DNA from: a virus | Taxonomy: Duplodnaviria; Caudoviricetes | Length of the DNA stretch: 64,000 nt | IMG/VR virus record: IMGVR_UViG_3300001528_000621 | Span: 64,001 to 128,000 of that record | Direction: 5' to 3' (one strand) | In this document: positions 2,725 through 51,596 of the stretch, piece by piece | Layout of the letters: each line of letters starts with the position of its first letter | Numbering within the stretch: position 1 is the first letter of the stretch | Translations under genes and position numbers: made by a program | Notes under the pieces: model-generated | Told to the model about the DNA's origin: nothing | The model's database searches: none | What the model saw: only the letters and a program-made list of their open reading frames with translations

Positions 2725-3983
2725 TGAGTAAGATAATTTGTTATATATCAGCTCCAGTTGATTCTTACAGTGGGTACGGACGTAGAGCTCTTGACCTTGT
2801 AGAACAGTTAATGATCATAAAGCCAGATTGGGATATCAGAATTCTTTCTCAGAGATGGGGAGATACCAGAATGGGATATCTTGAAGATCATGAGAAATGG
2901 GAGATCATTAGTAAGCTTGTACCTAACATAACAACAAAGCCAGATGTTTGGATTCAGGTTACAGTTCCGAACGAATTTCAGGCTGTAGGAAGATTTAACA
3001 TAGGCATAACAGCAGCTATAGAGACAACGCTTTGTGACGTAAGCTGGGTTGAGGGATGCAACAGGATGGATCTGGTCTTGACATCATCAGAACACGGAAA
3101 ACATTCTCTCATAGATACAAGATACATAAACAACAATACCGGCCAGGAAATCAAGGTGACAACGCCGGTAGAAGTTCTGTTTGAAGGAATAGATACGGAA
3201 ATCTTCTATAAGAAAGACGTACCGGAAAAGACAGAGGTTTTAGCTGGATTGAAGAATTCCTGGAACTTTATTTGTGTAGGACACTGGCTACAGGGTGTTT
3301 TTGGAGAAGATAGGAAAAATGTTGGATATACTCTAAAAGCGTTTCTAGAAGCATTTAAGGACACCGAAGGGCAGGTGCCGGGAATAATTCTAAAGACCTC
3401 TTCAGCTACAACGTCGTACATGGATCAGGAATCAATTCTCAACAAGATCTATGACATTGTAGAGTCTGTTCAGTATAAGAAGGGTATACCAAACATCTAT
3501 TTGCTTCATGGAGATCTGACAGAAAAGCAAATGAATGACGTTTATAATGATCCTAGAGTAAAGGCTATGGTTCTTTATACAAAAGGAGAAGGTTATGGAC
3601 GACCGTTCGCAGAATTTGCTACTATCGGAAAGCCGGTACTTACATCCGGTTGGTCTGGACACCGAGATTTCTTGGATGAAAAGATGACACCTATGATCGG
3701 TGGAACACTACAGAAGGTACATCCATCAGCTGTACAGCCGCATATGATTTTAGCAGAAGCATCTTGGTTTAAGCCGGATGATTCTCAAGCAGTTGCAGGT
3801 TGTCGAGAAGTATTCAAAAACTATACGTCTTGGTTGAAGAAAGCTGAAAGACAAGGGATGTCTCTATCTGTTATTAAGAACGTAGGAGCTATGGGAGATA
3901 GGCTGAACGATATTCTTACTGAATATGTACCGAAATTTCCAGAAAATGTCCATTTGAATCTACCAGAAGAACTATTAATTTAA
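2724..3983 (+). CDS. GT-B glycosyltransferase (GT4-like)
   Basis: SGYG, RKN, GEGYGRPFAEF, SGHRDF. Confidence 0.85.
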   Translation: MSKIICYISAPVDSYSGYGRRALDLVEQLMIIKPDWDIRILSQRWGDTRMGYLEDHEKWEIISKLVPNITTKPDVWIQVTVPNEFQAVGRFNIGITAAIETTLCDVSWVEGCNRMDLVLTSSEHGKHSLIDTRYINNNTGQEIKVTTPVEVLFEGIDTEIFYKKDVPEKTEVLAGLKNSWNFICVGHWLQGVFGEDRKNVGYTLKAFLEAFKDTEGQVPGIILKTSSATTSYMDQESILNKIYDIVESVQYKKGIPNIYLLHGDLTEKQMNDVYNDPRVKAMVLYTKGEGYGRPFAEFATIGKPVLTSGWSGHRDFLDEKMTPMIGGTLQKVHPSAVQPHMILAEASWFKPDDSQAVAGCREVFKNYTSWLKKAERQGMSLSVIKNVGAMGDRLNDILTEYVPKFPENVHLNLPEELLI

Positions 3984-8568: not shown

Positions 8569-9210
8569 ATGAGAAAACTACACATAGACTTAAAAGGAGA
8601 TCAGAAGCTGTTCTTTACTAGTGATTTACATGTAGGACATAAAAATGTTCTTAAGTTTTGTAATAGGCCTTTTCTAGATATCAAAGATATGTCTGCAGGT
8701 CTTATTGCAAACTGGAACAGTGTTGTAAGAGACTATGACATTGTGTTTGATCTCGGTGATATGTTCTGGTTTGATAGTCGTCATGAAGTTAGGAAATTTG
8801 TAAGCAAGTTGAATGGACGTATCTACAAAGTACCAGGCAATCATGATATGGATAGCAAAAAGCTCTTTGAACTTTGTGATCCAGGAAAAGTTGAGGTTTT
8901 AGACGATATTAATACTCTCTGGGTTACAGGACTTCTAGAAGGTAAGAAGTCTCTGGAGATTGTAGTGTGTCATTATCCTTTAGCAACATTTCCGCATTTT
9001 GAACATGCAATTCAGCTTTTTGGTCACATTCACAGCGGACCGTTGTCGGACAACGAAGTAGATATACCTGGAAAAGATTTGATCCTTAAAGAAGGAAAGC
9101 AGTACGACGTAGGTGTAGACAACAACGACTACCGTCCTGTAGAAATTCGAGAGATACTTAAAAAGCTTAACAAACCTGTGTACAATTTTGGAGTATCAGA
9201 AGATTTTTAG
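8569..9210 (+). CDS. calcineurin-like metallophosphoesterase
   Basis: SDLH, LGD, GNHD, HYP, GHIH, DVGVD. Confidence 0.9.
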   Translation: MRKLHIDLKGDQKLFFTSDLHVGHKNVLKFCNRPFLDIKDMSAGLIANWNSVVRDYDIVFDLGDMFWFDSRHEVRKFVSKLNGRIYKVPGNHDMDSKKLFELCDPGKVEVLDDINTLWVTGLLEGKKSLEIVVCHYPLATFPHFEHAIQLFGHIHSGPLSDNEVDIPGKDLILKEGKQYDVGVDNNDYRPVEIREILKKLNKPVYNFGVSEDF

Positions 9211-9242
9211 ATATTAAATCTTGAAGAAAATTAATAAAGTGT

Positions 9243-9746
9243 ATGGAAAAGTTAAGATACATCAGTACGCAGTTTAGAAAGAAAATCGTAGAAGCCTACA
9301 TTAAGGAATTTAATGTTCCGGTAGCTAGTGATAAAGAAGAAGCAGATGTAGAGGCTTTCTTGTTTGGTGATGATTTTAACCGTAGGCTGATTGATGTAGC
9401 TTTTGACCGGGCTGACCTAGAGGTAGACAGAGATAAGTATCAGCAACACTCTGACGAATACTTTAGAGACGTTGTAAGAGAGCTGCCTCAGTATCGGCCC
9501 ACGACCGTAATTACTTCATTGGACGGTCCTTGGACTGTAGACAGTAGCGACGACGTTAAAGTTGACCAGGTTAATTGGAATCTTCCGGACTTAATTTCAG
9601 TTCCTCTTGATAAGAAACAGTTAATCTATATAGGTGCTATGATTTTTTTAGCTACAAGAGGAGGAGTAATGGATCAGTCGGACGTAGCAAGAGCTTTTAC
9701 AGTGTCGTCAGATATCTACAAGAAGTTTGTAGAATCAGAAAATTAG
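9243..9746 (+). CDS. hypothetical protein
   Basis: 167-aa ORF. Confidence 0.7.
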   Translation: MEKLRYISTQFRKKIVEAYIKEFNVPVASDKEEADVEAFLFGDDFNRRLIDVAFDRADLEVDRDKYQQHSDEYFRDVVRELPQYRPTTVITSLDGPWTVDSSDDVKVDQVNWNLPDLISVPLDKKQLIYIGAMIFLATRGGVMDQSDVARAFTVSSDIYKKFVESEN

Positions 9747-9956
9747 ATATCTTTAGGATATTAGGTTTTTAGAAAATAGAGCCTATTTAATAACGTATAT
9801 TCACGATAGCTATGAAACAGAGTAATGATCTACATATTGACTTCAATCAGCCCGCAACAGCAGCGAAAGGTTGTGTGAAGTTTTATGCATCACTCTGGAC
9901 AGATAGACTAACGCCGTAGGTTTGGACGCTCTTTTTGGTTGTTTTCATTATATCTC

Positions 9957-9990
9957 ACCTCGGCACTAGAAATAGAGTCGAGGTTTTTTA
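9957..9990 (+). terminator. intrinsic terminator before the tRNA array
   Basis: ACCTCGGC...GTCGAGGT stem followed by a T-run. Confidence 0.65.
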
Positions 9991-10053
9991 ATAAAAGTTT
10001 TTGATTAAGCAAGAAAAGCTATTATCTTTAGCTTGTTGAAGAAAAATAGATAG

Positions 10054-10125
10054 GCCTTCTTAGTATAAAGGTCATTACAGCTGATTTGTAATCAGTTAAT
10101 GTCGGTTCGATTCCGGCAGAAGGCT
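10054..10125 (+). tRNA. tRNA-Thr(TGT)
   Basis: cloverleaf; GCTGA-TTTGTAA-TCAGT. Confidence 0.9.
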
Positions 10126-10252
10126 CAAAAAAAAAATAAAAATTATTTTTGATCAAGCAAGAAAAGTTACTATCTTTAGCTTATTAAGAATGGTAGATCA
10201 TTGATAAGTTTGAAAAACACTTACTACGGAATTGAGAAAGGAAGTAGTACAC

Positions 10253-10325
10253 GGACCCGTAGCTCTAATGGTAGAGCGGAGGCCTGAAGAGCCTCGCGTT
10301 GGTGGTTCGAGTCCGCCCGGGTCCA
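10253..10325 (+). tRNA. tRNA-Phe(GAA)
   Basis: GAGGC-CTGAAGA-GCCTC. Confidence 0.95.
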
Positions 10326-10340
10326 CAACTTTAGTAAAAA

Positions 10341-10473
10341 TAAAAGCGAGTTCTTAGTCTTGGTTCGAGTCCAAGCTGCGTCCTTCTCGAAAGGAATTCA
10401 AAAGCTTACAAAAATCAAATGTAGGTGGGGGCGTGGTAGTTTAGTTGTGTAGAGAACTGGGGACAAGTTTTTA
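10341..10473 (+). ncRNA. circularly permuted tRNA-like RNA (Y RNA/YrlA-like topology)
   Basis: long closing stem, then T-arm CTTGG-TTCGAGT-CCAAG, looped acceptor-like helix, then D-like arm. Confidence 0.6.
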
Positions 10474-10486
10474 GGAAAAATGGAAA

Positions 10487-10560
10487 GCACCTGTAGCTGA
10501 ATTGGTAAAGCACCAGCCTTTTAAGTTGTGTGATTGCGAGTTCGATCCTCGCCGGGTGCA
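10487..10560 (+). tRNA. tRNA-Lys(TTT)
   Basis: CAGC-CTTTTAA-GTTG. Confidence 0.85.
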
Positions 10561-10565
10561 CGAAA

Positions 10566-10640
10566 TCCTAGCTCTTGGGAGTTCGACTCTCCTTGCCGGC
10601 TTTCACGCCGATATTTACAGGACCGGTGCCTGTGCTAGGA
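10566..10640 (+). ncRNA. minimal circularly permuted tRNA-like RNA
   Basis: TCCTAGC/GCTAGGA closing stem, T-arm GGAG-TTCGACT-CTCC, capped acceptor-like hairpin, D-like arm ACAGG-ACCGGTG-CCTGT. Confidence 0.65.
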
Positions 10641-10643
10641 CAT

Positions 10644-10715
10644 GTCCGGATCATCTAATAGGTAGGATACTACCCTCTCAAGGTAGAAACCCGAGTTCGA
10701 TCCTCGGTCCGGATA
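10644..10715 (+). tRNA. tRNA-Glu(CTC)
   Basis: CTACC-CTCTCAA-GGTAG. Confidence 0.9.
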
Positions 10716-10719
10716 CAAT

Positions 10720-10795
10720 TTAGTCTTCGTTCAGTTGGTCAAGGACATTTCTTTTACAAAGAAAAGATTTAGCAGTTCGAATCTGCTAGACCCTA
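10720..10795 (+). tRNA. tRNA-Val(TAC), outer acceptor stem mismatched
   Basis: TTTCT-TTTACAA-AGAAA; acceptor TTAGTCT vs AGACCCT. Confidence 0.7.
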
Positions 10796-10800
10796 CAAAA

Positions 10801-10944
10801 GCTTTACTAGAGGTTAAGAGCTAGTCACTGGGGGACAAAAGAATAAGCTACGAAAAGAGTCGTCCGGAGACTCTAACAAGCTAGATCTTTTTTAGAACAG
10901 TGGCCGTAGACCTTTAATTCAACGTATGGTAAGAAAGGTAAAGC
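10801..10944 (+). ncRNA. structured ncRNA, unknown class
   Basis: terminal GCTTTAC/GTAAAGC; GTCACTG/CAGTGGC; AGAGTC/GACTCT hairpin. Confidence 0.5.
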
Positions 10945-10950
10945 TAATTT

Positions 10951-11038
10951 ACCCTGATGGTGAAACTGGTAGCCACCCTGGACTTAGGATCCAGTGCGAA
11001 GTAATAATAGCGTGAGGGTTCGAATCCCTCTCAGGGTA
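10951..11038 (+). tRNA. tRNA-Leu(TAG)
   Basis: CTGGA-CTTAGGA-TCCAG; long variable arm. Confidence 0.95.
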
Positions 11039-11146
11039 CAGCATCTAAAAGTAAATACTTTTGTGAATTAGCTACCTAGTTAGGAAGCTTCAGTAGCGTG
11101 GAAGATCGGAACGGCCGCCAGGCAACAGAAAGAGCCGCCGACACTT

Positions 11147-11235
11147 GGGAGTGCAGCGACGATGGCGGTGTCGTGCGAGACTGTAAATCTCGTCCTTAAC
11201 GGTAAACATTGCTGGTTCGAATCCAGCCGCTCCCA
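11147..11235 (+). tRNA. tRNA-Tyr(GTA)
   Basis: CGAGA-CTGTAAA-TCTCG; long variable arm. Confidence 0.9.
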
Positions 11236-11342
11236 CAAAGCTATTCTCGCGATACGTTGGTAATCATCTGAAATTGATGTTTCGTAACTACGTAAAGTGA
11301 GTGTGAAGAAGGGACGGTTGAAACAGTCCTAGTTTTTATGAA

Positions 11343-11999
11343 ATGAGATATTGTAAGTATTGTGGAAGGGAAATTGTAGAGGAGAAACACTACAAAGCCT
11401 GTCCTGAATGTAAAAACTATCTTAAGTTACCTTTGTATAGAAAATTAGGATTAGAAACAGGTTCGCTGAAGGAGAGGTATGAAAAATCTTTAGAGATACT
11501 AAAAGATTTGTATTTCAATCAAAAATTAAGTTCTCTAGATATTTGGAAAAGAACAGGAGTAAATTTTCGGACAATGCGTGATTTATTCCAGGAAAATGGA
11601 TTACATACAAGAAATTTTAGCGAGGGGGCTTTGACAGCAATAGCTGAGGGACGTTTACATCTTGGTTCAAATACGAAGTACAAGCACGGCTGGCATACGA
11701 CTTGGGAAGGAATTCAAGTCTACTATAGAAGTTCTTACGAATTAAAGTTTGCAAAGAAGCTTGATTCCGAAAAGATTCCGTATAGAATGGAATTTCTAAA
11801 AATTAAGTATTGGGACACAGAGAAGAATACAGAAAGGACAGCAATTCCGGACTTTTATCTACCAGATACAAAAGAGATTGTAGAGGTAAAGAGTTCTTAT
11901 ACATACAAAAAGCAGGAAATGAAAGATAAGTTTAGTTCATATAGAAAATTGGGATACAAACCCAAGCTACTATTAGGTTCCCAATTTGTTCCATTATAA
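11343..11999 (+). CDS. free-standing PD-(D/E)XK (TnsA-like) endonuclease, probable homing endonuclease
   Basis: YRSSYE, PDFYLP...IVEVKS; N-terminal CxxC pairs; lies within tRNA array. Confidence 0.7.
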   Translation: MRYCKYCGREIVEEKHYKACPECKNYLKLPLYRKLGLETGSLKERYEKSLEILKDLYFNQKLSSLDIWKRTGVNFRTMRDLFQENGLHTRNFSEGALTAIAEGRLHLGSNTKYKHGWHTTWEGIQVYYRSSYELKFAKKLDSEKIPYRMEFLKIKYWDTEKNTERTAIPDFYLPDTKEIVEVKSSYTYKKQEMKDKFSSYRKLGYKPKLLLGSQFVPL

Positions 12000-12004
12000 T
12001 ATTT

Positions 12005-12075
12005 GGTTCCGTAGTTCAAAGGAAGAACATGAGACTGTTAATCTTAAGATCGGATATCGTGATTCCGCGGGACCG
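12005..12075 (+). tRNA. tRNA-Asn(GTT), atypical T-loop
   Basis: TGAGA-CTGTTAA-TCTTA; T-loop ATCGTGA. Confidence 0.8.
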
Positions 12076-12107
12076 CACAACCGAACAAAATACAATATCA
12101 TTGGTGT

Positions 12108-12184
12108 AGCTCCATAGCTTAGCGGTTAGAGCTCAAGCTAGCATTTCCAAGTCCAGCGACGTAGGTTCGAATCTTACTGGAGCA
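12108..12184 (+). ncRNA. tRNA-like RNA with disrupted anticodon arm
   Basis: acceptor GCTCCA/TGGAGC with canonical D and T arms; anticodon arm does not pair normally. Confidence 0.6.
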
Positions 12185-12202
12185 GCTATTTTATTTTGGT
12201 TA

Positions 12203-12265
12203 GAAGTCATGCATGGATGCAGCCGGCCCAGATGCGCTGGTAGCGGGTTCGATTCCCAACACTTC
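12203..12265 (+). ncRNA. degenerate, miniaturised tRNA-like RNA
   Basis: GAAGT/ACTTC ends, GCCGGC/GCTGGT stem, GGG-TTCGATT-CCC. Confidence 0.45.
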
Positions 12266-12266
12266 G

Positions 12267-12337
12267 GACTCTATAGCTCAGTCAGGGCAGAGCAAGCACA
12301 GTTAGCTATGTCGTAGGTTCGAATCCTACTAGAGTCG
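12267..12337 (+). ncRNA. tRNA-like RNA with shortened anticodon stem
   Basis: perfect acceptor, D and T arms; AGC-ACAGTTA-GCT gives only 3 bp. Confidence 0.65.
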
Positions 12338-12344
12338 CTAAATT

Positions 12345-12416
12345 GGTTCCATAGGTCAACGGTTAGACTAAGTGCCTCTTAAGCATTGGATCCGGATTCG
12401 AATTCCGGTGGGACCA
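12345..12416 (+). tRNA. tRNA-Lys(CTT)
   Basis: AGTGC-CTCTTAA-GCATT. Confidence 0.9.
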
Positions 12417-12425
12417 CAAAATTTT

Positions 12426-12502
12426 GGTGCATGGGTCTGCATGGAGTGGACGCCTGACTGTCACTCAGGAGATACAGATGGGTTCAATTCCCATATGCAC
12501 CG
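12426..12502 (+). tRNA. tRNA-Asp(GTC)
   Basis: CCTGA-CTGTCAC-TCAGG. Confidence 0.9.
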
Positions 12503-12532
12503 CACATTTCGGGATACAGAATATATAAAATT

Positions 12533-12607
12533 CGAGAAGTGCGCCAGAGGTCTACGCGGCTGGTTTTGGGAACCAGATTTTCGTGAGTTCGAATCTCACC
12601 TTCTCGA
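12533..12607 (+). tRNA. tRNA-Pro(TGG)
   Basis: CTGGT-TTTGGGA-ACCAG. Confidence 0.9.
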
Positions 12608-12642
12608 CTATTTTTTCAAGAAAGCGGTTCGAGTTACTATTT

Positions 12643-12715
12643 GGGTCCTTAGTGATAACGGCCAGCACGGTAGCTTTGCAAGCTTCAGGTAGGAGTTCGA
12701 TTCTCCTAGGATCCA
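12643..12715 (+). tRNA. tRNA-Ala(TGC)
   Basis: loop TTTGCAA; G3:U70 present. Confidence 0.9.
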
Positions 12716-12722
12716 CAAAAAT

Positions 12723-12794
12723 GCCCGGTTGTTGTAACGGATAGCAGACAAGTCTTCGAAACTTAGGGTCCGGGTTCGAATCCTGGACCGGGCA
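12723..12794 (+). tRNA. tRNA-Arg(TCG)
   Basis: AAGT-CTTCGAA-ACTT. Confidence 0.9.
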
Positions 12795-12795
12795 C

Positions 12796-12915
12796 AAAGA
12801 CTACTAACTATGGATAACCGGGTTAGAGTTGCTGAAATCAGAAATCGAGGGCCCTTCTCGACATTAATACTTAAGGGTTTCATGGCGGTTGCGCCAGGTA
12901 GGTTGTGTAGTCTTT
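12796..12915 (+). ncRNA. long interrupted-hairpin ncRNA, unknown class
   Basis: nested AAGACTAC/GTAGTCTT, TAACCG/CGGTTG, TGAAATC/GGTTTCA, TCGAG/CTCGA. Confidence 0.5.
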
Positions 12916-12928
12916 TTTATTTTGAAAA

Positions 12929-13291
12929 ATGGTTGGGGAAATAAGGATATTTGCAGGAACTTCTATACCGGAAGGATGGCTTTTATGTGACGGAAGCTAC
13001 TTAGATTCAAACGCATATTTAGCTTTGTTTTCTGTAATTGGAAACACTTTTGGAGGAAAGTCTGGAAAATTTAGAATACCAGAACTTAAAGGCCCGGTTG
13101 ATGATGTTACAGCTAAGCTGAAGACTTCTGTAAACGGAATGGATGCTAATCACGACGTCGTTGTAACCCTAAATCAGAACAAAAATTTAAGATACATTAT
13201 ACAATTTAAGGAAGAGGGATTGAATGTTGTTCAAAAAGCAGAGGTTCAAGCAATGATTGATGCTTCCGCTCAGACAGTTCCTGAATCTTAG
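12929..13291 (+). CDS. phage tail collar domain protein
   Basis: GEIRIFAG...P.GWLLCDGS......Y.ALFSVIG.TFGG. Confidence 0.85.
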   Translation: MVGEIRIFAGTSIPEGWLLCDGSYLDSNAYLALFSVIGNTFGGKSGKFRIPELKGPVDDVTAKLKTSVNGMDANHDVVVTLNQNKNLRYIIQFKEEGLNVVQKAEVQAMIDASAQTVPES

Positions 13292-13378: not shown

Positions 13379-13530
13379 CTACGCTATGTCCGTGTGAAAG
13401 GCGTAGGACCCTTGCGTGTTACGGGTACGGCGAAGGGTTCGGTGAGTTGAACAAGGCGTAAGCTCAGAAGAGCTGGGAAAACTCATGGTAGAGGTACCGA
13501 ACGTTTTTTGGCTGAAAGCCTCTACGACCG
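13379..13530 (+). ncRNA. multi-stem structured ncRNA, unknown class
   Basis: CTACGCT/GGCGTAG, GACCCTT/AAGGGTT, AGCTC/GAGCT, GTAGAGG/CCTCTAC stems between two tRNAs. Confidence 0.55.
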
Positions 13531-13616: not shown

Positions 13617-14438
13617 ATGGAACTTTGGGAAAGATTTTGGAATAGTTTTGTACAAAGTGGACCTGTTCAACATATGAAATTTCACGAATACGATCGAATA
13701 GGTAACTATTTTGGAGGAAATATACCAGAAGACGTGACAGAGTCTTTTTTTGCAGATAAATACGGAAGAAGGGACCTAGTTCTTGAAAATCTTCAAAGTC
13801 ACGATGCAAAAGGACTGGTTGAGAGAATTAAAGAGCTTTTAGGAAAAGAAACAATTCGGTACGTAGAATTTCCACATAGAACAGGAGAGAAGGTTTACAT
13901 TGAACTCACCATAGCTTCACCAGAGCTGGTAAAGAGTGTTGTTAGTTCTGAAAAGTTTCAAAAACTAATTAAGTTCTATAATTACACTTTAGATCAGGTA
14001 GCAGGATCAAAAATTTCTCTTGAACCTAATTTTCCTAAAGTTCTAGACATTCCTGACGGAGCTTGGATCTATCATCTCGTTTGGTCAAAAGCTGTAACAG
14101 GTACAAGACCTGGATCAATCTCAATGGTAGATTCAATATTGAAGAACGGGCTTAGACCCAAAGATCACAACCAGTACAGATCCTACGGGGATAGTAAGGT
14201 TTTTGGATGGTACTTTGGAACAACTAGAAGATTCGAGGTTCTTGAAAAACTTAGAAAAGGTAGCGAAGAGCTTGGATTTGAACAAGAACATTGGGACAAA
14301 AACGAGGTGATTGTTTTAGGTATTAGAAACAGTAGAAACTTCAAGTGGTACCAAGATTCAGCAATGTATTCAGAGGGAGCTTGTTTTTCATATGATTTTA
14401 TACCTCCGCAATTCATTTCAAAAGTCTATCCAAAATAG
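13617..14438 (+). CDS. putative ADP-ribosyltransferase/Tpt1(KptA)-fold protein, paralog 1
   Basis: IYH...ILKNGLRPK...WYQD...IPPQFI; shares ENLQSHD with 20628 and 21608. Confidence 0.5.
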   Translation: MELWERFWNSFVQSGPVQHMKFHEYDRIGNYFGGNIPEDVTESFFADKYGRRDLVLENLQSHDAKGLVERIKELLGKETIRYVEFPHRTGEKVYIELTIASPELVKSVVSSEKFQKLIKFYNYTLDQVAGSKISLEPNFPKVLDIPDGAWIYHLVWSKAVTGTRPGSISMVDSILKNGLRPKDHNQYRSYGDSKVFGWYFGTTRRFEVLEKLRKGSEELGFEQEHWDKNEVIVLGIRNSRNFKWYQDSAMYSEGACFSYDFIPPQFISKVYPK

Positions 14439-14446
14439 GTAAAAAA

Positions 14447-14519
14447 GCTCTTTTCGTCTAGTGGACTAGGACATCTCATTCGTAACGAGAAAACGACTTT
14501 TCGAGTAAGTCAAGGAGCT
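14447..14519 (+). tRNA. tRNA-Thr(CGT)
   Basis: TCTCA-TTCGTAA-CGAGA. Confidence 0.8.
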
Positions 14520-16176: not shown

Positions 16177-17162
16177 ATGAGAAATTCTTTACAAGAACAC
16201 ATACACATTACCTACCTACTAAGGGAGGTTGAAGAACGGTTTCTCACCGAAGAGCATGGTTATGTTCCGGAACTAGATAACTACCTTCAATGCTTTAGAG
16301 AAGCTTTACCCGAAAAATATACTCCTGGTAAAGTTTTTACGATTGAAGATAATGCTTTTCAGTCAATCTCGAATTTATTTTTTAAAGACATAACAATTCA
16401 GGTTGGAGTAACCTATTCAGAGAGTGCTACTAATACATTTCCTCAAGGAAGGTACTTAGCAGACAAAGCGTTCTTTTATAAAAAAGAAAAAAAGCTACTC
16501 TATCCGGTCATAGTTCTGCTATATGTTACAAACTCCGGAGCAGAAGTAGAGGATAAGTTGGTAGAATCATTTGCACATGAACTTACTCACTGTTACGAAG
16601 ATTATCAAAGAGGATTAAAAAACTCTGATTCGCTCAGCGACACAGTTACTCAAGGATATGCATCGTGCATACAGTACGGAAAAGATGCTCAACCTTCAGA
16701 AAAGATATTAAAAAGTATACTATATTTTCTAAATAAACAAGAACAGCATGCTTATGTTGGAGAATTAAAAGCTGCACTACAGAAAGGAACAGTAGAAGAG
16801 TTAAGAAGCTCTGAAGAAGTTTTTGATTTGCTAAAGAATTCATTTTTTACAAAAATTATAGAATTGTAGAAAAGTACATGGGTCGAATTCAAGCAGAGCA
16901 ATTTAAAGACAATACAAAGCATAACATGCTTCGAAAGTTTCAAGAAATTTATCCAAATAATAGGAAAATTAGGAACTTTCATGAACTTTCTAAACTGCTT
17001 GTTTCTATGTGGGAAAGATGGGATAGAAAATTTAAAAACTCTATCGGAAAAATAGCTTTCGATATTTATTCAGACAAAGTAGGTAAAGAAAAGATATACA
17101 AAGATCCAGGATTAGAAGATCTTCTTGAAAATTACTGGACCAATGTAATAGAAGTTGTGTAG
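16177..17162 (+). pseudogene. HExxH (zincin-like) protein split by a frameshift at a T6 run (16843-16848)
   Basis: FAHELTHCYE...EQHAY; one extra T joins ORFs 16177 and 16878 colinearly with paralog 17946. Confidence 0.7.
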
Positions 17163-29804: not shown

Positions 29805-30527
29805 ATGCAGTGGTATAATAAGATTAATACTTGTTTTAGGAGAGATCTAGACAGGGAGTCTAAAACGTATAACCAGATTCTACCGGACGAGGAGCTTACA
29901 ACACCTGAGTTTGAGCTTCTTCGTAAATTGAATGCAAAGTGGGAAGCTACCGAAAAGGTAGATGGGGAATGTACAAGCATTCATCTTAAAGTAGATAACC
30001 TGACTGGGGATTATTGTGTGGAAGTGCACGGCAAGACTGACAAAGCTGTCATGCGACCAGAAGAGGTAAAGCTTTTGACAGAGATCGGAGATGTTGAGAA
30101 GCTCGTAGAAGTATTTACTCAAATTGATGCAGGTGGAAATAGGATTCTACCCGGAGATGAGTGTATTATCTTTGGAGAGACCTACGGAAGAGGTATGCAG
30201 AAGCCTGGTAGCAGATATTGTAGTACAAATCTTAAGTTCATTTGCTTTGATATTAAGATCGGAAACATATGGCTGAAGAGGGACGCTGTTGAGGACATCT
30301 GTAAGAAGCTCAACGTTGATGTAGTTCCATTTGTAGGAGAAATGACACTCAACGAAGCTATTGAGTATGTAAAGAAAGGATTTATGTCAACAGTGTCTGA
30401 AGATCCTACTCTTGAAGCAGAGGGTCTCGTACTTCGAGCTCCTCTTGGTCTTCTTGATAGGATGGGTCGAAGAATTATTACAAAGGTTAAGACGGTAGAT
30501 TTTAGAAAGCTTAAAGAAAATAACTAA
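29805..30527 (+). CDS. RNA ligase (Rnl2-like nucleotidyltransferase)
   Basis: TEKVDG, FGETYG, FDI, EGLVLR, K.K. Confidence 0.8.
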   Translation: MQWYNKINTCFRRDLDRESKTYNQILPDEELTTPEFELLRKLNAKWEATEKVDGECTSIHLKVDNLTGDYCVEVHGKTDKAVMRPEEVKLLTEIGDVEKLVEVFTQIDAGGNRILPGDECIIFGETYGRGMQKPGSRYCSTNLKFICFDIKIGNIWLKRDAVEDICKKLNVDVVPFVGEMTLNEAIEYVKKGFMSTVSEDPTLEAEGLVLRAPLGLLDRMGRRIITKVKTVDFRKLKENN

Positions 30528-43159: not shown

Positions 43160-44082
43160 TATATGGTATCGAAGACAGACAGAAACGAGGTTTGGGACAG
43201 AAACCGACGATACCTAGACGATTCGGAAACGGTAGAAGATTTGCAACCAATCTGTAAGAGGATTTGCAAACTATCAGATAGTCTCGTAGATCCGAAAACA
43301 GGAGAGTGGTGCAAGCGTCAAAATGAGTGTCCAGCATTCCAGCTTTGGTTGTCGAATGAAAGTTTAGAGTGGTCAATGGACAGCATATTATATTAGTTTT
43401 GGTATGAACGCAACAACACTAGACAAAGCATACGGGGCTTTACAAAGTCTTACAAAGGTTTTGAGCTTTGAAGAGTATCAAGCAATTAAGGACTGTTTAG
43501 ACTACGCAGACGATGCATATGTAGCAGCTGCAGAGGAAGCAGCAACAGCTTTCATTTTGGGCAGCGACCAGTGTAGTTGTTGTGAATCGTACAGTAAAGA
43601 GTCTTGCTTAGATTGTATGTTTAATCCACACAATAGTAGTAAAAAAGATGAATAATAACTTTATTGAGGTAACAAGATACTCTGGAGATAAAATTTACGT
43701 AAATCTGTCTCTTATTAAGTTCCTTCATCCTTCACGAGAGATGAAAACAGGATGCATACTATACTATACAGATGGAACAGACATTTTGCTTCGGGAAAGC
43801 ATGGAAGAAATTAAGAAAAAAATCTTAAATCAAGAGTGAAAGTAAGGATAAATCCGACAGTCGGAATTCGTCGATGGTACCACAAGCTGAACGAGCACAT
43901 CGTTAGAGCAGTTTCTGGTATTAATCACAAACACGATTTTCATCTTGTAGATACTCATCGAATGTTTATAGAAGATTCTAGTCACGACATAGTTTATCGG
44001 AAGCGTTTTGATTTGTACCGATGTAAAAAATGCGAGGCTATAAGAACCGGGGAAACGGTTGAAAAAGATTAATTTTTAGAAA

Positions 44083-44133
44083 GCAAGAAAAGCTATTATC
44101 TTTAGCTTAGAAATTAAAAACAAAAGAATTATG
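44083..44133 (+). promoter_or_regulatory. representative copy of the repeated promoter/TIR cassette GCAAGAAAAGCTATTATCTTTAGCTTAGAAATTAAAAACAAAAGAATTATG
   Basis: near-identical copies with TATCTTTAG core at ~42755, 44097, 47025, 48451, 49474, 50119; core motif occurs more than 25 times in the window. Confidence 0.85.
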
Positions 44134-50000: not shown

Positions 50001-51596
50001 CAGAAAAAATGTCGTACAAAGATTGTGAATTCTACTGCAAAGCTTTTGAGGTATTTCGGACCGAAGTACTCTCGTACGTTTATATGAAGAAAAGTTTTTA
50101 GAAAGCAAGAAAAGCTATTATCTTTAGCTTAGAATTAAAACAAAAGAATTATGGAAAGATTTAGTCTAGAAAAGTATTTGAAGAATCCAAACAGAGAGGT
50201 TGTCTACGGAGAAGGTAAAACTCCAGCTAGAATACTTTGTACGGACCTTAAAGGTAGAACTCATCCGATCGTAGTAGCTGTCACGAACATTAAGGGAGAT
50301 GAGGAATTTACATACACCTGTTCAGAGAACGGCGAATGGAACGGCAGTCCTGTTCTGTTCTTCAAACCAGAAAAACGCTATGTTAACTTTTGGAGGTTTG
50401 GCAAAGACGGAGAGTGGCAAGTAGAAAGAGGAACATACGGGACTGCAGACGAAGCCAATGAAGCTGTTCAGGAAAAGTTTGATAGACTTGCAAAAAGTTA
50501 CTTAGACTGGGATTCGGTTTCGGTAAAGACGGTACCGGTTGAAATTTCTGAAGATTAACGGAATCGTCCGAAAGAAGTCTAGAAAATGGGGAGAGTGTTT
50601 CGAAAATATTCGGAAGCACTGTTCCTGTTAAATCAAAAAATGGGTATGGTTTTCTGCAAAAAATGGGTAGGTTTTATTTATATGAAAACTACATATGGAA
50701 CAGACAGTACGACCTATTCGGAGAGCTCCTTCTCTCGTACTAGAAGACATAGCTATGGTACGTAGAAGATTAGAGGAAGCTACATCGGAACGAAATAGAC
50801 ACAACCTCGAAATATGGTTAAAGTCTCTTGAAAAGGAACTATTTACAGCTAATAAATATCGATATGGAAAGAAATGAACCGACTAAATTGACCCTAAAAC
50901 ACTACAATGAGATGTCTTGGGAAGGTCCTTGGGATGCAAACCTAGGCGATTTGATGACTGCGTTTGTAGGGTGTCTGAGAGGTGTAGGATTTGGTGAATG
51001 GGTAGTAAGGTCTATCCGAGACTGGTGTAATGAACAGCTACCGGAAGAGGACGTAGAAGAGTAATATCTAAGTCGTCACTAAAGAGTTACTAGAGGTTGA
51101 GAACTAAAATTTCTCAGCCTTTTTCTATATCTAACTTACAAGGGTAATAGAAGAAGAGTAATAAGAGCTTTATAGGAGAACTTGAGTATCCCTTAAAAGT
51201 AAAAGCTAAGTAATATAATCATATATGAAAGAAAATAACTAAGGAGAATCAAAGTTCTCCTAAAGATAGAATATAAAAGAAAACTAAAATAATTTCTATT
51301 ATGTTCAAAGATTTATACTATCTTTAGGTATGGAAAAAAAGAAGAAGAAAAAGAAAGTAGATGAGGTACCGGTAGAGGTTTTTGAACTTCATCAATTGTG
51401 GGAAATCATATACAGGGAGGATAGGTATAGGACAGGACAATACTTAGCTATTCGTATGGAACATAAAGGGTTTCCTAAAATTGAAAAGGTCTTGGAACAA
51501 ATAAAATTAGCATCGGGACATACGTTCCCTGACTTAGTAAAAATTGAATTGGTTCAAGAGGGTTGGAAAAGTCTCACCAAGGAGAAAGTAGTGTAG
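47066..51596 (+). other. block of small early-type hypothetical genes (47066, 47496, 47780, 48001, 48483, 49508, 49778, 50151, 50695, 50864, 51330)
   Basis: many preceded by the repeated promoter/translation-start cassette. Confidence 0.65.

What the first reader, a model, noticed from the sequence alone, without database searches (positions are those of the whole stretch)
10341..10473. Second, larger permuted tRNA-like RNA with a long terminal stem (Y RNA-like)
Seen: TAAAAGC-GA-GTTCTTAGT pairs with ACTGGGGAC-AA-GTTTTTA (16 bp including wobbles, with a 2x2 internal loop). Inside are a perfect T-arm CTTGG-TTCGAGT-CCAAG, an acceptor-like helix CTGCGTCC/GGGCGTGG closed by a ~40-nt insert containing a hairpin, and a D-like segment. 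It shares topology but not sequence with 10566-10640. Inference: either a Y RNA analogue whose long stem binds a protein, or a permuted pre-tRNA matured by ligation; an RNA ligase gene lies at 29805.
Basis: partly seen in the sequence, partly recalled or inferred. Interest (0 to 1): 0.72.

Follow-up and report, generated by a model that had tools for sequence, protein, structure and literature searches.

The report
Back-to-front tRNA look-alike in phage
A 133-base stretch between two tRNA genes of an uncultured large phage can fold like a tRNA whose acceptor end is sealed and whose anticodon arm is replaced by a long stem; the fold is far from chance, but I found it in only two near-identical phages, with no partner protein, so its function is unproven.

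Summary
With the T arm fixed and the flanks shuffled, an equally good acceptor plus closing stem arose 3 times in 20,000. Re-joined in normal order, ARAGORN calls it a tRNA.

It is not a catalogued family. Rfam gives no match, YrlA included. The phage has no Ro60/TROVE gene, and the YrlA Ro-binding motif is absent. It cannot form an anticodon loop, so a permuted pre-tRNA is very unlikely.

I found only one homologue, in a 98%-related phage. There it differs at 5 of 133 bases, a spacer-like rate. Six more distant syntenic relatives carry other tRNA-like RNAs in the same slot after tRNA-Phe.

The best reading is a lineage-specific, tRNA-derived, non-decoding tRNA mimic of YrlA design. It is probably co-transcribed with the tRNAs and cut out by tRNA-processing enzymes. 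The main rival is a functionless rearrangement relic.

This scan has noted the same design before on other phage DNA, including the sibling at 10566-10640.

The parts
10149..10182 (+). Promoter-like 34-nt phage motif upstream of tRNA-Phe. It is the probable start of the transcript that carries tRNA-Phe, the element, tRNA-Lys, the sibling and tRNA-Glu.
   Evidence: The motif has four copies in the window (10001, 10149, 44075, 50097) against 0 expected. No terminator-like site lies between it and the element. Its promoter function is inferred.
10253..10326 (+). tRNA-Phe(GAA), the upstream neighbour. Its 3' processing would set the element's 5' end.
   Evidence: ARAGORN and Rfam.
10341..10347 (+). 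Outer closing stem, 5' strand (TAAAAGC). It pairs with 10467-10473.
   Evidence: One pair (G10346.U10468) becomes G.G in the related phage.
10348..10349 (+). 5' side of the 2x2 internal loop (GA opposite AA at 10465-10466).
10350..10355 (+). Inner closing stem, 5' strand. 10351-10355 is the anticodon-stem 3' strand equivalent (positions 39-43). It pairs with 10459-10464.
   Evidence: G10462.U10352 becomes A-U in L105.
10356..10358 (+). Variable-loop equivalent (AGT).
   Evidence: The two registers compete and I cannot resolve them without covariation.
10359..10375 (+). T arm CTTGG-TTCGAGT-CCAAG, with G53-C61 and T54/A58.
   Evidence: The T loop changes only at positions 59/60 in L105.
10376..10383 (+). 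Acceptor 3' strand (CTGCGTC) plus the discriminator-position C.
10384..10428 (+). 45-nt insert that closes the acceptor helix. It holds a hairpin at 10404-10410/10420-10426.
10429..10436 (+). A G opposite the discriminator (a G-1:C73-like pair) plus the acceptor 5' strand GGCGTGG. The predicted RNase P site lies 5' of 10430 or 10429.
   Evidence: Pairing. The cleavage is inferred from M. smegmatis YrlA (PMC4201824).
10437..10458 (+). U8, A9 and the D arm, followed by position 26. The D stem is GTTT 10439-42 / GAAC 10454-57. The 11-nt loop has A14, G15 and A21, but G18/G19 are split by a U.
   Evidence: ARAGORN drawing of the re-joined sequence.
10459..10473 (+). 3' strands of the inner closing stem (10459-10464) and the outer closing stem (10467-10473), with AA of the internal loop between them.
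10487..10561 (+). tRNA-Lys(UUU), the downstream neighbour. RNase P cleavage at its 5' end would set the element's 3' end.
10566..10640 (+). Sibling miniature element of the same T-arm-first design, with a 4-bp closed acceptor and a D arm that has GG.

Best explanation
The element is a tRNA-derived gene whose parts lie in circularly permuted order. It encodes a non-decoding, tRNA-shaped small RNA of the YrlA design.

Shown: it has a T arm. Directly after the T arm comes a 7-8 bp acceptor helix closed by a 45-nt insert. A D arm follows, and a 16-bp two-part stem stands where the anticodon arm would be.

Inferred: it is transcribed from the phage promoter-like motif at 10149-10182, together with tRNA-Phe and tRNA-Lys. 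It is freed by the enzymes that mature those tRNAs. It folds into an L shape without an anticodon. Its 7-bp acceptor stacked on the T arm would make it a substrate for RNase P (cut 5' of G10430) and for 3' trimming with CCA addition, as happens with M. smegmatis YrlA. That would give two halves held together by the long stem.

Speculative: its job would be to occupy or recruit a protein that recognises the tRNA elbow and acceptor. That protein could be a host tRNA-targeting factor or a processing or modification enzyme. It would not decode, and no phage-encoded Ro60 would be involved.
For: Architecture beyond chance: 3 of 20,000 flank shuffles reach it. It is the only strict hit in the genome, with 0 in shuffled genomes.

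tRNA numbering fits, and the re-joined sequence is called a tRNA by ARAGORN at the default threshold.

The 23 core pairs have 7 G.U and no mismatch, against 9.8% G.U in the phage's tRNAs. This pattern is expected if pairing is kept while the sequence drifts.

The homologue in a second phage keeps all core helices. One of its changes turns G.U into A-U.

The element lies inside a tRNA operon behind a repeated promoter-like motif, with no terminator between.

A sibling of the same design lies 93 nt downstream, and a third, unrelated in sequence, lies in a related phage (L109:15118-15193).

All six distant syntenic relatives hold some tRNA-like non-coding RNA in the slot after tRNA-Phe.

Against: I found the element in only two near-identical phages.

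Between them it diverges 3.8%, like the spacers (3.0% pooled) and more than most tRNAs. One change breaks a pair of the outer stem.

The D loop lacks an intact GG, and the 15:48 pair would be G.U, so the elbow may be weak.

The tRNA-like fold is 10 kcal/mol above the MFE.

No partner protein was found: no TROVE, and neither DUF7873 nor RtcB in the family lists returned for 165 ORFs. In one search two of 27 families were not shown.

The ARAGORN re-joining test has a 5-8% false-positive rate.

There are no expression data.
Confidence: 0.45

Rival explanations
1. It is a relic of tRNA gene rearrangement, for example two tandem copies that each lost their outer half. It is still transcribed as spacer in the tRNA operon but has no function of its own.
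For: Its divergence from the only homologue is spacer-like: 5/133, and 3/75 for the sibling. Its distribution is restricted to one lineage, and relatives have other RNAs in the slot. The D loop is degraded and many pairs are G.U. Tandem odd tRNAs in a relative show how a permuted look can arise (L102:3651-3925).
Against: There is no room in the flanks for the missing halves, and no parent tRNA exists in this phage or its relatives. A tandem-copy origin gives only the 5-bp anticodon stem for free, not the further G-C pair plus 7 bp. Seven G.U pairs and no mismatch in 23 fixed-geometry pairs is unlikely under neutral decay, roughly (1/2)^7 if transitions dominate (inference). A second element of the same design lies right next to it.
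Confidence: 0.35
2. It is a Y RNA analogue that binds the host's Ro60/Rsr protein through its long stem, using the tRNA-like module as in YrlA.
For: It has the same module order as YrlA (PMC4201824). The stem carries a purine-rich 2x2 internal loop. The nearest cultured relative infects Flavobacterium. One Bacteroidota control genome carries TROVE.
Against: There is no TROVE gene in the complete phage genome. There is no GNCGAAN0-1G motif: the element has AGCGAGU. There is no Rfam YrlA match at E<=10. The 'ACAGCAA' handle noted elsewhere in this scan is absent. The outer stem is not conserved even in the 98%-related phage. The host is unknown.
Confidence: 0.1
3. It is a true circularly permuted pre-tRNA. 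Its ends are joined by the phage ligase and the insert is removed, giving a decoding tRNA.
For: The 3' half precedes the 5' half, and the acceptor strands are joined by an insert. A protein with the Pfam RNA_ligase domain (PF09414) and phosphoesterases are encoded in the window.
Against: The residues next to the 5-bp anticodon-stem equivalent pair with each other. They offer no 7-nt loop with U33 and R37. There is no bulge-helix-bulge motif, and no splicing endonuclease family appeared in the Pfam scans. The phage already has 31-32 tRNAs.
Confidence: 0.03
4. It is a chance arrangement of helices around a stray T-arm-like hairpin.
For: The RNAfold z-score is modest, -2.4. Relaxed versions of my scanner give many false hits at ordinary T arms.
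Against: Only 3 of 20,000 shuffles match the architecture. tRNA-specific single residues sit at the right places. A sibling element lies next to it.
Confidence: 0.02

Closest known systems
YrlA (Y RNA-like A, Rfam RF02553; Chen et al. 2014, PMC4201824), especially the M. smegmatis form
   Same: The order is T arm, then a stem-loop in the acceptor position, then the D arm, with the RNA's own ends closing the module where the anticodon arm would be. Like M. smegmatis YrlA, it has a full 7-bp acceptor helix. In that RNA the helix is cut by RNase P and receives CCA.
   Different: There is no Ro60/TROVE gene within 4 kb or anywhere in the phage. There is no GNCGAAN0-1G motif, no V stem-loop and no match to the Rfam model. 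The D loop has no intact GG. The closing insert is 45 nt long. The element sits inside a phage tRNA array between two real tRNAs.
Circularly permuted tRNA genes of Cyanidioschyzon merolae and other algae and archaea (my own knowledge: Soma et al. 2007)
   Same: The 3' half (T arm, acceptor 3' strand) lies upstream of the 5' half (acceptor 5' strand, D arm), with an intervening sequence between the acceptor strands.
   Different: Those genes carry a bulge-helix-bulge motif. After circularisation they yield a normal anticodon loop, and they need the archaeal/eukaryal splicing endonuclease. Here there is no such motif, no possible anticodon loop, and the setting is a bacterial phage.
Two-piece (permuted) tmRNA genes of alphaproteobacteria and cyanobacteria (my own knowledge: Keiler et al. 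2000)
   Same: The gene order is permuted, with the T arm and acceptor 3' strand first. An intervening segment is removed by processing, and the two pieces are held together by pairing.
   Different: There is no tag reading frame and no pseudoknots; only 37 nt follow the acceptor 5' strand. There is no G3:U70. ARAGORN and Rfam tmRNA models give nothing.
Sibling element at 10566-10640 and the T-arm-first element in a related phage (L109:15118-15193); earlier notes of this scan on phage 'rotated tRNA mimics'
   Same: The same T-arm-first, closed-acceptor, D-arm, closing-stem design inside phage tRNA arrays.
   Different: They are unrelated in sequence and smaller, with 4-5 bp acceptor hairpins that RNase P should not cut. 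The families noted elsewhere in the scan travel with a Ro60-shaped protein or DUF7873, and neither was found here.

Membership tests
YrlA / bacterial Y RNA (RF02553) | tRNA-like module in the order T arm, acceptor-position stem-loop, D arm, closed by the RNA's terminal stem | tested here: met
YrlA / bacterial Y RNA (RF02553) | GNCGAAN0-1G motif near the 5' end (probable Rsr contact; PMC4201824) | tested here: not met
   The 5' strand reads AAGCGAGUU. No GNCGAAG lies inside 10341-10473.
YrlA / bacterial Y RNA (RF02553) | Encoded within about 4 kb of, and on the same strand as, a Ro60/TROVE gene | tested here: not met
   PF05731 has no match in the complete 187,848-bp genome, while the control genomes ring. 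No TROVE appears in the Pfam family lists returned for 165 ORFs.
YrlA / bacterial Y RNA (RF02553) | Match to the Rfam covariance model | tested here: not met
   No hit at the gathering score or at E<=10 on 10300-10960.
YrlA / bacterial Y RNA (RF02553) | tRNA tertiary-interaction nucleotides conserved (8:14, 15:48, G18G19 with the T loop, 54:58) | tested here: inconclusive
   U8, A14, A21, T54, A58 and G53-C61 are present. G18/G19 are split by a U, and 15:48 would be G.U.
YrlA / bacterial Y RNA (RF02553) | Bound by Rsr; modified by TruB/DusA | not testable with these tools
   Needs immunoprecipitation and modification mapping.
Circularly permuted tRNA gene | 3' half upstream of the 5' half, with the acceptor strands linked by an intervening sequence | tested here: met
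   The re-joined halves are called a tRNA by ARAGORN.
Circularly permuted tRNA gene | Termini form a bulge-helix-bulge motif, and joining them yields a 7-nt anticodon loop (U33, R37) | tested here: not met
   The termini form a continuous helix with a 2x2 loop. The residues beside the 5-bp stem are G10350 and C10464, paired to each other, followed by GA/AA.
Circularly permuted tRNA gene | tRNA splicing endonuclease available | tested here: inconclusive
   No such family appears in the Pfam lists returned for the phage ORFs, though 2 of 27 families were not displayed. The host is unknown, and bacteria generally lack the enzyme (my own knowledge).
Two-piece (permuted) tmRNA | Tag reading frame and pseudoknots downstream of the acceptor 5' strand; alanine identity pair G3:U70 | tested here: not met
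   Only 37 nt follow the acceptor 5' strand. Pair 3:70 is C-G in the 7-bp register. ARAGORN and Rfam tmRNA models give no call.
Canonical tRNA (RF00005) | Detected as a tRNA in its native order, with an anticodon loop | tested here: not met
   ARAGORN and Rfam do not call it. It is detected only after artificial re-joining with filler bases.

The most novel reading that the evidence does not exclude
After RNase P and 3' trimming the element becomes a two-piece, CCA-tailed, anticodon-less tRNA body. Its acceptor end carries a G-1:C73-like pair (G10429:C10383), as the phage's own tRNA-His does. This body would be recognised, perhaps even charged, by an acceptor-reading enzyme. Alternatively it would serve as a decoy against a host factor that attacks tRNA acceptor or elbow regions. 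The rapid turnover of different tRNA-like RNAs (A/B versus X/Y/Z) in the same slot of related phages would then reflect an arms race.
Probability: 0.1. Interest if true: 0.75.

Novelty: new variant of a known kind. Interest (0 to 1): 0.42.

Why it matters
If it is functional, this would be a YrlA-style tRNA mimic that works without a phage Ro60 gene and sits inside a phage tRNA operon. That would widen what 'Y-like' tRNA mimics can be, and it would add to the case that large phage tRNA arrays also carry non-decoding tRNA look-alikes.

Related phages always keep some tRNA-like non-coding RNA after tRNA-Phe, but they swap which one. That points to a fast-evolving function, possibly decoys against host tRNA-directed factors. 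It could be tested with a cultured relative such as the Flavobacterium 'immuto' group.

If it is only a relic, it still shows how permuted tRNA-like genes arise.

Tried and rejected
**Searches for homologues**
- blastn of the element and of 9000-13000 against 50,697 phage records found nothing. Distant blastn of 10040-10800 hit only ordinary tRNAs.
- Exact 22-mers from the T arm/acceptor and from the D arm were absent from viral and metagenome collections.
- A single-sequence covariance model (R1) found no hit in the Flavobacterium phage immuto or in 30 IMG/VR relatives by capsid protein. It gave only weak, probably spurious hits (E 0.06-4) in six syntenic relatives.
- Relatives sought through protein 9243-9746, the capsid protein alone and the array-embedded paralogues were not useful.

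**Partner proteins**
- I tested a lead from earlier notes, that DUF7873 or a Ro60-like protein is the partner. Neither appeared in the Pfam family lists returned for 165 ORFs, and there is no TROVE. The family name 'DUF7873' was not accepted by the genome search.

**Ancestry**
- No tRNA of this phage or of 200 tRNAs from relatives matches both halves.
- The variable-loop plus T-arm 23-mer pattern is mostly tRNA-Gln in metagenomes. In genomes it occurs in Planctomycetota, Omnitrophota and Patescibacteria, not Bacteroidota. Ancestry and host mimicry stay unresolved.
- Similarity of the insert to families X and Y is not significant: z 0.5-3.2, with 'AAAAATCAAA.T.TAGG' shared with Y.

**Other**
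- The tandem-copy artefact, seen in a relative at L102:3651-3925, does not apply here because the flanks have no room.
- The genome search 'relatives' is not available for virus records.

Full report
**Context**

The window is bases 64001-128000 of a complete 187,848-bp uncultured phage with direct terminal repeats. The phage has a T4-type portal, capsid protein and terminase, and a family A DNA polymerase. Its nearest cultured relative is Flavobacterium phage vB_FspM_immuto, with best-segment capsid identity of 68%. The host is therefore probably a member of Bacteroidota (inference).

All genes run on the + strand. The window holds 31 ARAGORN tRNAs plus one seen only by Rfam. The element at 10341-10473 fills most of the 160-nt gap between tRNA-Phe (10253-10326) and tRNA-Lys(UUU) (10487-10561). 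The sibling at 10566-10640 fills the gap between tRNA-Lys and tRNA-Glu.

RNAfold keeps both closing stems, the acceptor-like helix and the insert hairpin. The MFE is -37 kcal/mol, z = -2.4.

The parts also fit standard tRNA numbering:
- The acceptor 5' strand is GGCGTGG (10430-36) and its 3' strand is CTGCGTC (10376-82).
- The discriminator-position C10383 pairs with G10429.
- U8 is 10437 and G10 is 10439.
- The D stem is GTTT/GAAC (10439-42/10454-57). Its 11-nt loop starts A14-G15 and ends A21.
- A 5-bp anticodon-stem equivalent is 10459-63/10351-55.
- A 3-nt variable loop follows, then a T arm with T54, T55, C56, G57, A58 and G53-C61.

Where a tRNA has its anticodon loop, the helix simply continues: one G-C pair, a 2x2 GA/AA loop and seven more pairs. 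There is no anticodon.

I re-joined the halves in normal order with five filler bases. ARAGORN then called a tRNA at its default threshold and drew exactly this cloverleaf. That test is lenient: 18 of 380 chimeric tRNAs and 25 of 300 versions with a shuffled 5' half were also called.

A stricter test held the T arm and shuffled the flanks 20,000 times. An acceptor helix of at least 8 bp together with a closing helix of at least 13 bp arose only 3 times. The observed values are 10 and 9+7. My strict scanner finds only this element in the genome and none in 20 shuffled genomes.

There are weak points:
- The D loop has G-U-G instead of GG.
- The 15:48 pair would be G.U.

**What it is not**

ARAGORN and Rfam call nothing here, either at gathering scores or at E<=10. 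That includes YrlA and tmRNA.

Chen et al. 2014 define YrlA by three features: the T/acceptor-stem/D module, a GNCGAAN0-1G motif near the 5' end, and a position within 4 kb of a Ro60 gene. Only the first is met:
- The 5' strand reads AAGCGAGUU, and no GNCGAAG lies in the element.
- The complete phage has no TROVE match, although the control genomes ring.
- Pfam scans of 165 ORFs of at least 90 aa returned no TROVE, RtcB or DUF7873. DUF7873 is the partner noted elsewhere in this scan. In one search two of 27 families were not displayed.
- The 'ACAGCAA' handle reported elsewhere in the scan is also absent.

A true permuted pre-tRNA is very unlikely. The residues flanking the 5-bp stem pair with each other, no loop with U33/R37 can be made, and there is no bulge-helix-bulge motif. 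The RNA ligase at 29805 is real, but it lies 19 kb away.

**Relatives**

No sequence homologue exists in 50,697 phage records. Exact-word scans of the viral and metagenome collections found none. Neither immuto nor 30 IMG/VR relatives by capsid protein have one. Those relatives carry only 2-6 tRNAs.

The metallophosphoesterase-like protein (Pfam PF00149 in its homologues) just upstream (8569-9210) gave a graded series of syntenic relatives.

One is a near-identical phage (98% protein identity; L105). It has the element at L105:11096-11228 with five substitutions:
- Two fall at T-loop positions 59/60.
- One falls in the junction before the acceptor 5' strand.
- One turns G.U into A-U in the inner stem.
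- One breaks a G.U of the outer stem.

That is 3.8% divergence. The sibling shows 4.0%, the pooled spacers 3.0%, and most tRNAs 0-2.7%. Two-genome conservation therefore gives no evidence of constraint.

Six more distant relatives (65-74% identity; L107, L109, L111, L113, L114, L117) keep the array order Leu-Thr-Phe but have no homologue of the element. In the same slot they carry other RNAs:
- Family X is in all six. It is about 145 nt in normal order, with a covarying acceptor and T arm, a long insert and a conserved GTTACTTCGAAAGGT.
- Family Y is in four. It is 170-250 nt, running GGGGATA...TATCCCC then G and CCA or a near variant, with a D arm and a long-range stem.
- L109 and L111 each have a hairpin ending in GCCA.

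None of these is in the window's phage. One relative has another T-arm-first element at a different slot (L109:15118-15193).

So the design recurs, and the slot always holds some tRNA-like non-coding RNA. The occupant, however, turns over.

**Origin**

No tRNA of this phage, and none of 200 tRNAs from relatives, matches both halves. The D arm reads like the common UAGCUCAGUUGGUAGAGCAC with C-to-U changes and one inserted U (my reading). The variable-loop plus T-arm pattern is mostly tRNA-Gln in metagenomes (53 of 75). In genomes it occurs in Planctomycetota, Omnitrophota and Patescibacteria, not Bacteroidota. The element is clearly tRNA-derived, but its parent is unknown.

A relative shows how tandem odd tRNAs can fake a permuted hit (L102:3651-3925). 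That does not apply here: the flanks have no room for the missing halves, and the closing stem extends 8 bp beyond what a tandem origin gives for free.

The 23 pairs of the core helices include 7 G.U and no mismatch, against 9.8% G.U in the phage's tRNAs. Under neutral decay, transitions should give A.C mismatches as often as G.U pairs. This pattern therefore hints that pairing has been kept (inference).

**How it most likely works**

A 34-nt motif occurs four times in the window against none expected. Two copies lie just upstream of tRNA-Thr and tRNA-Phe. No terminator-like site follows before the element. I infer one transcript carrying Phe, the element, Lys, the sibling and Glu. The element's ends would be set by 3' maturation of tRNA-Phe and by RNase P at tRNA-Lys.

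M. smegmatis YrlA has a 7-bp acceptor stem. It is cut by RNase P in vitro, and its in-vivo halves match that cut and carry added CCA. YrlAs with shorter stems are not cut. By that precedent I predict cleavage 5' of G10430, or of G10429. The G10429:C10383 pair mimics the G-1:C73 of the phage's own tRNA-His. Removal of the 45-nt insert would follow. The product would be two halves held together by the 16-bp stem.

What it then does is not shown. The most likely role is a non-decoding tRNA mimic that occupies or recruits a tRNA-binding protein (confidence 0.45). The main rival is a transcribed relic (0.35). A Y RNA for a host Ro60 gets 0.1, and a permuted pre-tRNA 0.03.

**Novelty and score**

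The design is known from YrlA, including in mycobacteriophages that encode Ro60. This scan has repeatedly noted the same design in other phages, and the sibling in this window was already followed up.

What differs here:
- No Ro60 gene and no Ro-binding motif.
- A full-length acceptor helix closed by a long insert.
- A position between real tRNAs.
- A restriction to one lineage, in a slot where relatives carry other tRNA-like RNAs.

I rate it a new variant of a known kind, with moderate interest (0.42).

Noticed in passing
L107:12479-12633, L109:12159-12302, L111:11470-11611, L113:11751-11890 and 14357-14490, L114:11843-11983, L117:12198-12339: Family X is a roughly 145-nt RNA in normal order. 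It has a covarying 7-bp acceptor and T arm, a roughly 70-nt insert after the acceptor 5' strand, a conserved GTTACTTCGAAAGGT, and an anticodon-like arm whose loop varies. It is in all six distant syntenic relatives, in the slot after tRNA-Phe, and absent from the window's phage. Neither ARAGORN nor Rfam calls it as a full-length tRNA. Its 3' two-thirds resembles tRNA-Gly(UCC).
   Followed up: partly
L107:12636-12851, L113:11496-11746, L114:11622-11838, L117:12365-12536: Family Y is a 170-250-nt RNA running GGGGATA...TATCCCC followed by G and CCA or a near variant. It has a D arm (GGCA-AGGT-TGCC), a long-range stem, a variable middle and a T arm. The layout is tmRNA-like, but ARAGORN reports no tmRNA in any of them, and Rfam (run only on the L113 copy) gives no tmRNA match.
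   Followed up: partly
L109:12303-12355 and L111:11625-11709: Long hairpins ending in GCCAAT lie directly before the next tRNA, in relatives that lack family Y.
   Followed up: no
L109:15118-15193: Another T-arm-first, closed-acceptor tRNA mimic lies in a related phage, between tRNA-Gly(UCC) and tRNA-Cys. It has a 6-bp closing stem in the fold (up to 7 by eye), a 5-bp acceptor hairpin and a D arm with GG. It is unrelated in sequence to the window's elements.
   Followed up: partly
window 10001-10034, 10149-10182, 44075-44108, 50097-50130: A 34-nt motif (AAGCAAGAAAAGCTATTATCTTTAGCTT core) has four copies against none expected, each upstream of a tRNA or an ORF. It is probably a phage promoter.
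   Followed up: partly
window 10797-10950 versus 10717-10796: Between the window's phage and its 98% relative (L105), the 154-nt non-coding stretch after tRNA-Val has no change at all. tRNA-Val itself differs at 9 of 80 positions, including indels.
   Followed up: no
window 13617-14438 and 16177-16869: These two ORFs inside the tRNA array have no counterpart among the called genes of the near-identical phage L105. The array changes by gene-sized insertions and deletions.
   Followed up: no
L109:18299-18370, L111:19177-19248, L113:19978-20049: Related phages carry a tRNA with anticodon CUA (ARAGORN labels it 'Pyl'), a possible amber suppressor. ARAGORN called none in the window.
   Followed up: no
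L102:3651-3743 and 3800-3925 (IMG/VR relative G006): Two tandem tRNA-like genes share the acceptor AGTCAGG/CCTGACT and carry long inserts in the anticodon region. Together they mimic a permuted tRNA in topology scans.
   Followed up: partly
window 13429-13435: GGCGAAG, the YrlA-type GNCGAAG motif, lies inside the GC-rich structured stretch between tRNA-His and tRNA-Thr. The motif's count in the window is at chance level.
   Followed up: no
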